From a virus (taxonomy: Duplodnaviria > Heunggongvirae > Uroviricota > Caudoviricetes), in the IMG/VR virus record IMGVR_UViG_2718218100_000013: DNA of 9,449 bases; one strand, 5' to 3'. Positions 5,819 through 6,430 of the stretch are shown here, piece after piece; positions within the stretch are counted from its first letter, which is position 1; every line of letters begins with the position of its first letter. Under the pieces are notes generated by a model that did not search any database, had not been told where the DNA came from, and worked only from the letters and a program-made list of their open reading frames with translations. Made by a program: the position numbers and the translations under genes.

Positions 5819-6061
5819 TTATTCTCCGATAGCGTGACCTGATAAGCCGTTAATCTTCTCTGATATGCTCTCTATTTTGCTGGTTGAACTATCCAGTAAT
5901 TCAGAAACGGCAAATATTAATCTTGCGGTTGATTCATCGCGTTCATTATTCACCAGCGACTGAAGCCACATGTTCATTACTTCGTTCGCTGCGTTGTTTA
6001 AAGATATTGCGCTGTTGGCAAGGATTCTTAATTCAATGGTCGCCAGTTTGTTATTGTTCAT
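5819..6061 (-). CDS. Small hypothetical protein, about 80 aa (ATG at 6061; the track's longer form starts at a TTG at 6082)
   Basis: ORF with GGAGGG upstream of the ATG; tightly packed against the next gene (stop at 5819, next ATG at 5813). Confidence 0.5.
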   Translation of the reverse strand: MNNNKLATIELRILANSAISLNNAANEVMNMWLQSLVNNERDESTARLIFAVSELLDSSTSKIESISEKINGLSGHAIGE

Positions 6062-6242
6062 TGTATTGCTCTCCCTCCGCAATTAACCATGCCGACACAT
6101 TGCCGGAAAGACGCGCCAGAAGACTGGAAATCGCGGATATATCGGCATCCGTAAGTTTGTCAGGGTATACCTCAAGAAGGCGGCAAATGATTTCAACCTG
6201 CTACGCTCTTTCCGCAATTTCGTGTAATGTAATTTCCTTCAT
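6051..6242 (-). pseudogene. Possible disrupted small gene: ATG at 6242, in-frame amber TAG at 6201-6203, frame then stays open to TAA at 6051-6053
   Basis: ATG overlaps the stop of the upstream ORF (TAATG). A 49-codon open stretch follows the amber. This could be chance, so it is a weak call. Confidence 0.2.
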
Positions 6243-6430
6243 TAATGCCCCCCCCCTTTTAATTCATGTACTGCTGCAATAATTACATGTGATAAACCTG
6301 CTTTACCGGAATTACTGATTACTGAATCAATCGCCGCTTGCATATTAACGGCCTTCACGTTCTGCGTGATGCCAACGGTATAGCCGCGCTTGTTAACAGC
6401 ACGGGAAAAAACGCGGAAGGTTTTAAGCAC
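6242..6430 (-). CDS. Small hypothetical protein, about 62 aa if the GTG at 6430 is used (track shows a longer GTG-6472 form); C-terminus encoded by a G9 tract
   Basis: AGGGGG upstream of GTG 6430. Last residues KGGGH are read from the homopolymer at 6248-6256. Start is uncertain. Confidence 0.3.
   Translation of the reverse strand: MLKTFRVFSRAVNKRGYTVGITQNVKAVNMQAAIDSVISNSGKAGLSHVIIAAVHELKGGGH

What the first reader, a model, noticed from the sequence alone, without database searches (positions are those of the whole stretch)
6051..6256. Second 9-nt homopolymer at an ORF junction, next to an amber-interrupted ORF
A C9 tract (plus strand, 6248-6256) encodes the C-terminal glycines of the 6242-6430 ORF and ends 5 nt from the next ATG (TAATG overlap). 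That next ORF has an in-frame TAG at 6201-6203, after which the frame stays open for 49 codons. A one-base insertion in the tract would fuse the two ORFs. Two 9-nt G/C homopolymers in 9.4 kb, both at the 3' ends of small ORFs, suggest slipped-strand phase variation or decaying genes.
Basis: seen in the sequence. Interest (0 to 1): 0.4.

Follow-up and report, generated by a model that had tools for sequence, protein, structure and literature searches.

The report
Unstable poly-G run beside a dead gene
In an E. coli phage-satellite island, the ribosome-binding site between two tiny genes has mutated into a slippage-prone run of nine G's whose length differs between isolates, and the gene after it has been killed by a recent stop-codon mutation; this looks like ordinary gene decay, not a new switch.

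Summary
On the coding (minus) strand, a G9 run (6256-6248) encodes the Gly-Gly-Gly of the tail of a 62-aa ORF (orfA, 6430-6242). It ends 5 nt before the ATG of the next ORF (orfB, 6242-6051; TAATG overlap). orfB carries an in-frame TAG at 6203-6201.

The window is a PICI-type phage satellite island in E. coli, between cspD/yljB and clpS. orfA and orfB are real, conserved small genes of unknown function (phrog_3672 and phrog_1478; dN/dS 0.07-0.4).

The TAG is a recent CAG-to-TAG nonsense mutation. Every homologue outside the window's shallow lineage has His, Gln or Arg there, and NCBI's PGAP already flags the ORF as a pseudogene with an internal stop.

The G-run is derived. Most relatives have AAA GAG GTG CAT TAA TG at this junction, where GAGGTG is orfB's Shine-Dalgarno sequence.

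Tract length is strongly polymorphic. G6 to G10 are each found on tens to hundreds of E. coli contigs, in both the amber and the intact orfB backgrounds. These include natural OrfA-OrfB fusions (G7, G10).

The tract lies after OrfA's folded domain and keeps SD pairing in any register, so length changes are probably tolerated.

Best reading: a hypermutable slippage hotspot plus a pseudogene. An adaptive phase switch is not supported, though it is not excluded.

The parts
6248..6256 (-). G9 homopolymer (C9 on + strand). It encodes Gly-Gly-Gly of the OrfA tail and also serves as the Shine-Dalgarno region of orfB. It is a length-polymorphic slippage hotspot.
   Evidence: Sequence. Relatives have GAGGTG, GGGGTG, G7 or G8 at the same place. 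Products of G6-G10 are all present in the 15-billion-protein collection. Anti-SD pairing is kept.
6242..6430 (-). orfA, 62 aa, GTG start (ATG in relatives). Conserved small protein of unknown function, with a beta-beta-alpha-beta domain of 58 aa plus a disordered GGGH tail.
   Evidence: PGAP CDS WP_000920688.1. phrog_3672 E=1.6e-26 over residues 1-58. dN/dS 0.07-0.25. AF2 pLDDT 91.6, with tail residues below 50.
6051..6242 (-). orfB, a 63-codon gene inactivated by an amber codon (pseudogene). Intact homologues form a two-helix hairpin protein of unknown function.
   Evidence: PGAP 'internal stop' pseudogene in ERL03-1416, F8798 and 25-07338. phrog_1478 E=3.8e-30 with the stop restored to Q. 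Intact 63-aa homologues. dN/dS mostly 0.2-0.4. AF2 helices 6-25 and 32-62.
6201..6203 (-). Amber codon TAG, codon 14 of orfB, derived from CAG (Gln) by one C-to-T transition.
   Evidence: CAG in AVS0542 and L011, CAC in 27 loci, CAA and CGC once each, and TAG only in the window's lineage. The allele identical except for Q14 exists on 7 contigs.
5819..6061 (-). orfC, 80 aa. Its ATG lies 8 nt before the orfB stop (overlapping genes) and it has its own GGAGGGAGAG SD.
   Evidence: phrog_5796 E=1.5e-49.
6423..6626 (-). Icd-like gene immediately upstream. Its stop overlaps the orfA start.
   Evidence: NF033153 E=1.4e-17. PGAP annotation.
2671..2679 (-). Second G9 run. It is intergenic, starting 3 nt after the stop of the 53-aa ORF 2844-2683 and ending 117 nt before the terS ATG (2553). 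It is also length-polymorphic.
   Evidence: G8, G9, G10 and CAG7/CAG9 in relatives. Match lengths of 420-423 among >=99% identical complete genomes. No sigma-70-like promoter around it.
979..9449 (-). Context: the PICI-type satellite island. Genes are int 9449-8226, alpA 7364-7140, icd-like, orfA/B/C, DUF4222 5813-5514, D5-type primase 5517-3769, terS 2553-2065 and a capsid-like gene 1902-979. All run on the minus strand.
   Evidence: Pfam, PHROG and NCBIfam hits. RefSeq annotation of the 99.97% identical island between cspD/yljB and clpS. Layout matches Gram-negative PICIs as described in PMC6092414.

Best explanation
The region is the junction of two translationally coupled small genes (orfA, orfB) in the early, AlpA-side operon of an E. 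coli PICI-type phage satellite.

In the ancestral state the last codons of orfA, AAA GAG GTG CAT TAA, contained orfB's Shine-Dalgarno sequence (GAGGTG) 5 nt before the overlapping TAATG. Two point substitutions turned GAGGTG into G6. From then on the run behaved as a replication-slippage hotspot and has repeatedly expanded and contracted, giving G6 to G10 in this sub-family.

The changes are tolerated for two reasons. The run lies after OrfA's folded 58-residue domain, and a G-run can still pair with the anti-SD in any register. In-frame lengths (G6, G9) keep the two genes separate and coupled. G8 and G11 give OrfA an out-of-frame tail that reads across the orfB start. G7 and G10 make an OrfA-OrfB fusion.

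Independently, in the window's shallow lineage a single CAG-to-TAG transition at codon 14 truncated OrfB to 13 residues. orfB here is therefore a recent pseudogene, and its long open frame after the stop simply reflects how young the mutation is.

Shown: the anatomy, the ancestral SD, the length polymorphism, conservation and purifying selection in homologues, and the derived nature of the TAG. Inferred: that length changes arise by replication slippage, that they are near-neutral, and that orfA and orfB are translationally coupled.
For: - Junction in 24 of 35 related sequences is GAGGTGCAT+TAATG, with intermediates GGGGTGCAG and GGGGTGTAAT. Pure runs G7/G8/G9 occur only in the closest relatives.
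- Exact products of each tract length exist, as contig counts: G6 717, G9 233, G8 556 (amber background) and 75 (intact background), G7 211 and 65 (the latter a true 125-aa fusion), G10 27 and 2.
- G9 occurs with both TAG and intact orfB. G8+TAG is seen in an SRA-derived assembly.
- Complete genomes with the amber background: G9 x5, G8 x4, G7 x1, and otherwise nearly identical over 181 nt. In the intact background G7 is about x12 and G6 about x18. Sister O157:H7 isolates differ: Z1814 against 7 other Z strains.
- Another sub-family, on a different island, has G11 giving a fusion.
- Codon 14 is CAC/CAG/CAA/CGC everywhere else.
- PGAP annotates an 'internal stop'.
- Both ORFs match PHROG families and have dN/dS well below 1.
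- The GGGH tail is disordered, outside a confident fold.
- SD pairing is retained.
- Mononucleotide runs are indel hot spots in E. coli, and 8-bp G.C runs are already outliers in the K-12 genome (PMC8510543).
Against: - No read-level or experimental data, so neutrality of the length changes is inferred, not shown.
- Two independent long G-runs in one 9.4-kb island, both polymorphic, is more than expected by chance and could hint at selection for mutability.
- In the intact-orfB background the in-frame G6 state dominates (717 contigs against about 140 out of frame). This could reflect selection on frame, which would mean the junction matters. It could equally reflect the greater stability of a shorter run, or clonal sampling.
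- Some length differences in long-read assemblies may be sequencing errors.
Confidence: 0.7

Rival explanations
1. The G-runs are true contingency loci. The satellite uses slipped-strand mispairing to vary stochastically the format or expression of early gene orfB (separate, occluded or fused to OrfA). Through the second tract it also varies expression of the terS packaging operon, as bet-hedging in the satellite-helper-host conflict.
For: - Both tracts are long for E. coli and far beyond chance.
- Both are length-polymorphic among near-identical genomes.
- All three frame states occur naturally, including fusions on 65 contigs.
- A second sub-family independently carries a G11 run at the same junction.
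Against: - The tract is absent from most homologues, which have GAGGTG, so it is recent and not conserved.
- It lies in the last 4 codons of orfA, outside the fold, so there is no ON/OFF effect on orfA.
- orfB keeps its ATG and SD at all lengths.
- In the amber background, with nothing left to switch, the tract varies just as much.
- No promoter-like context surrounds the second tract.
- States are shared by hundreds of isolates, which suggests change on a clonal-lineage timescale rather than rapid switching.
Confidence: 0.17
2. The length differences are sequencing or assembly artefacts at homopolymers, and the real tract is fixed.
For: Many complete genomes come from long-read platforms that miscall homopolymers. 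Near-clonal FRIK2455 and FRIK2533 differ by one base at the second tract.
Against: - Each length state recurs on tens to hundreds of independent contigs from NCBI and SRA-derived assemblies.
- States track clones. Four genomes of near-identical size (probably one clone) are all G9, and seven Z strains are all G6.
- The same states appear in IMG/VR and Logan contigs.
Confidence: 0.04
3. The TAG and the tract are recoding signals. The amber codon would be read through or suppressed, or RNA polymerase or ribosome slippage on G9 would make a functional OrfA-OrfB product, so that orfB is still expressed.
For: - The frame stays open for 49 codons after the TAG.
- G10-type transcripts would fuse the ORFs.
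- Long homopolymers can cause transcriptional slippage (general knowledge, established mainly for A/T runs).
Against: - The TAG is confined to one shallow lineage and differs by a single base from an intact allele. This fully explains the open frame.
- Even a fused product would stop at the TAG (the 75/76-aa products).
- Homologues lack both the tract and the stop.
- No suppressor tRNA or recoding element was found. No dedicated search was made for them.
Confidence: 0.04

Closest known systems
Homopolymeric-tract contingency loci (slipped-strand phase variation) of Neisseria, Haemophilus, Campylobacter and Helicobacter; homopolymeric-tract indel variants in M. tuberculosis (PMC11898584; only its abstract was seen)
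   Same: A poly-G/C run changes length by slippage, shifts reading frames, and is polymorphic among closely related isolates.
   Different: Here the run is at the extreme 3' end of one gene and in the SD of the next, not in a 5' coding region or a promoter spacer. It is a recent derivative that most homologues lack. It gives no ON/OFF outcome, and the host is mismatch-repair-proficient E. coli. Rapid reversible switching has not been shown.
Indel hot spots at mononucleotide runs in E. coli (mutation-accumulation studies, PMC8510543)
   Same: Long G.C runs are rare outliers and mutate by +/-1 indels far faster than other sites. This is the mechanism proposed here.
   Different: Those data come from laboratory MMR-defective lines. 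Here the evidence is natural polymorphism across isolates.
Gram-negative phage-inducible chromosomal islands such as EcCICFT073 (PMC6092414)
   Same: int - alpA - small ORFs - pri/rep - terS-like and capsid-like packaging genes, all transcribed in one direction; a chromosomal island of about 9 kb.
   Different: Helper-phage induction and transfer of this particular island were not tested. The small ORFs orfA and orfB are uncharacterised in that literature.
Ordinary nonsense pseudogenes in prophages and islands
   Same: A single derived stop in an otherwise conserved, selected ORF. It is already flagged by PGAP.
   Different: Nothing material.

Membership tests
SSR contingency locus (phase-variable gene) | Repeat tract long enough for frequent slippage | tested here: met
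   G9, with G6-G11 in relatives.
SSR contingency locus (phase-variable gene) | Tract length polymorphic among closely related isolates | tested here: met
SSR contingency locus (phase-variable gene) | Length change switches a gene ON/OFF (tract in the 5' coding region or a promoter) | tested here: not met
   The tract is in the last 4 codons of orfA, outside the folded domain. orfB keeps its ATG and SD. In this lineage orfB is already dead.
SSR contingency locus (phase-variable gene) | Tract maintained across homologues | tested here: not met
   24 of 35 related sequences have GAGGTG instead.
SSR contingency locus (phase-variable gene) | High-frequency reversible switching within a clonal population | not testable with these tools
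   Needs raw reads or fluctuation assays.
Nonsense pseudogene | Homologues have an intact ORF with a sense codon at the position | tested here: met
   Codon 14 is CAC, CAG, CAA or CGC and H or Q in 22 representative proteins.
Nonsense pseudogene | The intact gene is under purifying selection | tested here: met
   dN/dS mostly 0.2-0.4. PHROG match E=3.8e-30.
Nonsense pseudogene | The stop is derived and confined to a shallow clade | tested here: met
   TAG occurs only in sequences at least 98% identical to the window. The Q14 allele exists.
Nonsense pseudogene | No full-length product is made | not testable with these tools
   Needs proteomics or tagging.
Gram-negative PICI | int, alpA, pri-rep and packaging-interference genes in one direction, about 8-15 kb | tested here: met
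   Definition from PMC6092414.
Gram-negative PICI | Induction and high-frequency transfer by a helper phage | not testable with these tools
   Experimental.
Programmed recoding site (frameshift or transcriptional slippage giving a required fusion) | Slippery tract and two-frame arrangement conserved in homologues | tested here: not met
   Most homologues have no tract and have separate, coupled ORFs.

The most novel reading that the evidence does not exclude
The two poly-G runs are contingency loci of a phage satellite. By slippage, the island population would carry sub-clones that make OrfA and OrfB separately, fused or uncoupled, and that express the terS packaging operon at different levels. 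That would make this the first described simple-repeat phase variation used by a PICI in E. coli.
Probability: 0.1. Interest if true: 0.55.

Novelty: new member of a known kind. Interest (0 to 1): 0.22.

Why it matters
Mostly housekeeping. The 'amber-interrupted ORF' is a recent pseudogene that annotation pipelines already flag. The homopolymer is a slippage hotspot that arose from a Shine-Dalgarno sequence.

Practical value is modest:
- These two runs will generate spurious frameshift, pseudogene and fusion calls, and noise in SNP or indel typing of STEC genomes.
- They could serve as fast-evolving markers within O157:H7 and related clones.
- The natural series G6, G7, G8, G9 and G10, including true OrfA-OrfB fusions, is a ready-made allelic series for anyone studying what these uncharacterised PICI early genes do.

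If the tracts proved to be functional switches, it would extend contingency-locus biology to phage satellites. The present evidence leans against that.

Tried and rejected
- The scan of genome contigs (one genome per species) for orfA relatives found nothing. The family appears confined to Escherichia and Shigella islands.
- Pfam, NCBIfam, PADLOC and PDB sequence searches gave no hit for orfA or orfB, so function remains unknown.
- Foldseek of the OrfA model against PDB gave only non-significant resemblance to the small beta-beta-alpha-beta domain of ribosomal protein eL20/LX (best E=0.02, TM about 0.75-0.8). I draw no functional inference from it. OrfB is a helical hairpin and was not fold-searched, because such matches are uninformative.
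- The first protein search, with a fused query, returned only unusual long forms and was not a census. It was replaced by exact-sequence look-ups.
- A promoter-spacer role for the second tract: no sigma-70-like promoter was found. This is a weak negative.
- The unannotated 55-aa ORF 2686-2519 that begins on the second tract was rejected as a gene, because tract-length variation shifts its frame in relatives.
- Amber suppression, readthrough, programmed frameshifting and sequencing artefact were considered and given low probability (see rivals).
- Contig counts cannot be used to infer selection, because public E. coli collections are heavily clonal (outbreak sampling).

Full report
**What the window is.**
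The 9,449-nt window is 99.97% identical to a chromosomal island of E. coli ERL03-1416. The differences are 2 mismatches and one indel in a C5/C6 run. The island lies between cspD/yljB and clpS.

All genes run on the minus strand:
- integrase (9449-8226)
- an AT-rich 257-aa ORF
- alpA (7364-7140)
- an Icd-like gene (6626-6423)
- three small ORFs, here called orfA (6430-6242), orfB (6242-6051) and orfC (6061-5819)
- a DUF4222 gene
- a D5-type primase (5517-3769)
- further small ORFs
- a terS-like gene (2553-2065)
- a capsid-like gene (1902-979)

The layout is that of Gram-negative phage-inducible chromosomal islands, in which AlpA activates a unidirectional operon (PMC6092414). Helper-phage dependence of this island was not tested.

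**Checking the observation.**
- On the coding strand the sequence reads ...GAA TTA AAA GGG GGG GGG CAT TAA TG AAG GAA...
- The G9 run is at 6256-6248.
- orfA ends K-G-G-G-H-stop, and its TAA overlaps the orfB ATG (TAATG).
- orfB has TAG as codon 14 (6203-6201), followed by 49 open codons.
- Simulating tract lengths shows that G7 or G10 fuses orfA to orfB. G8 or G11 gives orfA a 20-residue out-of-frame tail that reads over the orfB start. G6, G9 and G12 keep the TAATG junction.

The only other C or G run longer than 6 nt is a second G9 at 2679-2671. Under an iid model the expected number of such runs in the window is about 0.03. The second run starts 3 nt after the stop codon of a 53-aa ORF and lies in the 130-nt spacer before terS, so it is intergenic.

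**The amber codon is a recent nonsense mutation in a real gene.**
- With the stop restored to Gln, orfB matches phrog_1478 (E=3.8e-30, 61 of 63 profile positions). orfA matches phrog_3672 (E=1.6e-26).
- Across 35 related sequences (the window, four other E. coli complete-genome loci and 30 IMG/VR contigs), codon 14 is CAC in 27, CAG in 2, and CAA and CGC in 1 each. TAG occurs only in the window and its near-identical relatives.
- In 22 representative homologous proteins the position is His or Gln, flanked by invariant Ala13 and Gln15.
- Pairwise dN/dS is 0.07-0.25 for orfA and mostly 0.2-0.4 for orfB.
- An allele identical to the window's except for Gln14 exists on 7 contigs.
- RefSeq's PGAP annotates this ORF as a pseudogene with an 'internal stop' in ERL03-1416, F8798 and 25-07338. 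It annotates intact 63-aa proteins in AVS0542 and 2014C-3061.
- The AlphaFold model of an intact homologue is a two-helix hairpin (pLDDT 78). The stop falls in the middle of helix 1, so the 13-residue product cannot be functional.
- The long open frame after the TAG simply reflects the youth of the mutation.

**Where the G-run came from.**
In 24 of the 35 sequences the junction is AAA GAG GTG CAT TAA TG. There orfA ends K-E-V-H-stop, and GAGGTG is a Shine-Dalgarno sequence 5 nt upstream of the orfB ATG. Intermediates GGGGTGCAG and GGGGTGTAAT occur in other relatives. Pure G-runs occur only in the sequences closest to the window. Replacing the A and the T of GAGGTG gives G6 (K-G-G-H-stop), which is the same length as the ancestral junction. 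G7 to G10 are expansions of it.

A duplex calculation with the 16S rRNA 3' end shows that the G-run still pairs with the anti-SD through a G.U wobble. Because it is a homopolymer, it can do so in any register, so the ribosome-binding site of orfB survives every tract length. The AlphaFold model of OrfA (pLDDT 91.6) is a compact beta-beta-alpha-beta domain that ends at ...HELK. The Gly-Gly-Gly-His tail encoded by the run is the only disordered part. It also lies beyond the region aligned to the PHROG profile.

**Tract length is strongly polymorphic.**
Exact-sequence look-ups of the products predicted for each tract length gave these contig counts:

| Tract | Background | Product | Contigs |
|---|---|---|---|
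| G6 | not distinguishable from the product | ...KGGH | 717 |
| G9 | both | ...KGGGH | 233 |
| G8 | amber | out-of-frame tail | 556 |
| G8 | intact orfB | out-of-frame tail | 75 |
| G7 | amber | product stops at the TAG | 211 |
| G7 | intact orfB | true 125-aa OrfA-OrfB fusion | 65 |
| G10 | amber | product stops at the TAG | 27 |
| G10 | intact orfB | 126-aa fusion | 2 |

Intact orfB of the commonest allele is on at least 1,000 contigs.

Further evidence:
- DNA of ten contigs encoding the G9 form shows G9 with the TAG in seven and with intact orfB in three.
- An SRA-derived contig shows G8 with the TAG.
- Among complete genomes, the amber background has G9 in five, G8 in four and G7 in one, and is otherwise nearly identical over 181 nt. 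Four of the five G9 genomes have near-identical chromosome sizes and are probably one clone.
- The intact background has G7 in about 12 and G6 in about 18. O157:H7 strain Z1814 (G7) differs from seven sister Z strains (G6).
- In a second orfA/orfB sub-family, on a different island (Phage_ASH and DUF927 neighbours), a G11 run at the same junction fuses the ORFs.
- The second tract varies in the same way: G8, G9, G10 and CAG7/CAG9 in IMG/VR contigs, and match lengths of 420-423 nt among >=99% identical complete genomes.

Since the TAG most likely arose once, at least three tract-length changes have happened in that background. Over the same time the surrounding ~900 nt accumulated less than 1% substitutions. 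The run therefore mutates orders of magnitude faster than an ordinary site.

**Interpretation.**
The best-supported account is a slippage hotspot created by accidental homopolymerisation of a Shine-Dalgarno sequence and orfA tail segment, next to a recently inactivated gene. This agrees with what is known of E. coli. Mononucleotide runs are the main indel hot spots, and even 8-bp G.C runs are outliers in the genome (PMC8510543).

Against an evolved phase-variation switch:
- The run is absent from most homologues.
- It cannot switch orfA off.
- orfB keeps its own start signals.
- Variation is just as extensive in the amber background, where orfB is already dead.
- Each state is shared by tens to hundreds of isolates, which suggests change on the timescale of clonal lineages rather than of cultures.

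In favour of some functional relevance:
- There are two independent long G-runs in one small island.
- The in-frame G6 predominates where orfB is intact. That could equally reflect the greater stability of a shorter run, or clonal sampling.

A pure sequencing artefact is unlikely, given the recurrence of each state in many independent assemblies. Individual long-read genomes may still be wrong by one base. Recoding is unlikely because even a fused product would stop at the TAG, and because homologues lack both features.

**Limits.**
- The function of OrfA and OrfB is unknown. There are no Pfam, NCBIfam, PADLOC or PDB sequence hits, and only a non-significant fold resemblance for OrfA.
- Switching rates, within-culture heterogeneity, translational coupling and any phenotype of the length variants could not be tested here.
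- Contig counts are confounded by outbreak-biased sampling.

**Verdict.**
This is a new instance of well-known phenomena and is of low to moderate interest.

Noticed in passing
window 2671-2679 (and 2553-2682 spacer): The second G9 run is intergenic, between a 53-aa ORF and terS. It is length-polymorphic (G7-G11) among near-identical E. coli genomes. It is followed by a perfect 12-nt palindrome, TTCCGGCCGGAA. The tandem repeat AAAAGTTACAC-G-AAAAGTTACAC (about 2598-2575, minus strand) just upstream of terS is a possible regulator-binding site.
   Followed up: partly
window 2629-2633: A G5 run on the + strand (C5 on the coding strand) is C6 in the otherwise 99.97% identical ERL03-1416 island. 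This is a third small homopolymer indel in the same intergenic spacer.
   Followed up: no
window 314-401 and 851-938; 504-604 and 738-809: An 88-nt direct repeat (95% identical, 537 nt apart) and iteron-like repeats (GGAAGAATCAATGGGTTAG...) lie downstream of the capsid-like gene at the island end. They could be a duplicated att, a remnant of a tandem island, or a packaging or origin region.
   Followed up: partly
window 7456-8229 (minus strand): A 257-aa ORF between int and alpA has markedly low GC (31-34% against about 47%) and no hit in Pfam, NCBIfam or PADLOC. It is a likely accessory or cargo gene of the island with unknown function.
   Followed up: partly
window 6826-7005 (+ strand): A YlcI/YnfO-family gene on the opposite strand sits between alpA and the Icd-like gene. 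The 235-aa minus-strand ORF 7130-6423 that overlaps it is probably spurious. PHROG labels the Icd-like protein family 'transcriptional repressor'.
   Followed up: no
L007 (IMG/VR) against window 6051-6242 and L005: orfB alleles are mosaic. L007 has the 2014C-type 5' part and the window-type 3' part, which indicates recombination between island variants inside this 190-nt gene. L024 carries an independent 1-nt deletion that also inactivates orfB.
   Followed up: no
L002 (E. coli O157:H7 F8798), downstream of orfC: In this close relative the DUF4222 gene is truncated and the primase is a different allele (WP_000833607.1). This suggests module exchange or further decay in the same island family.
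   Followed up: no
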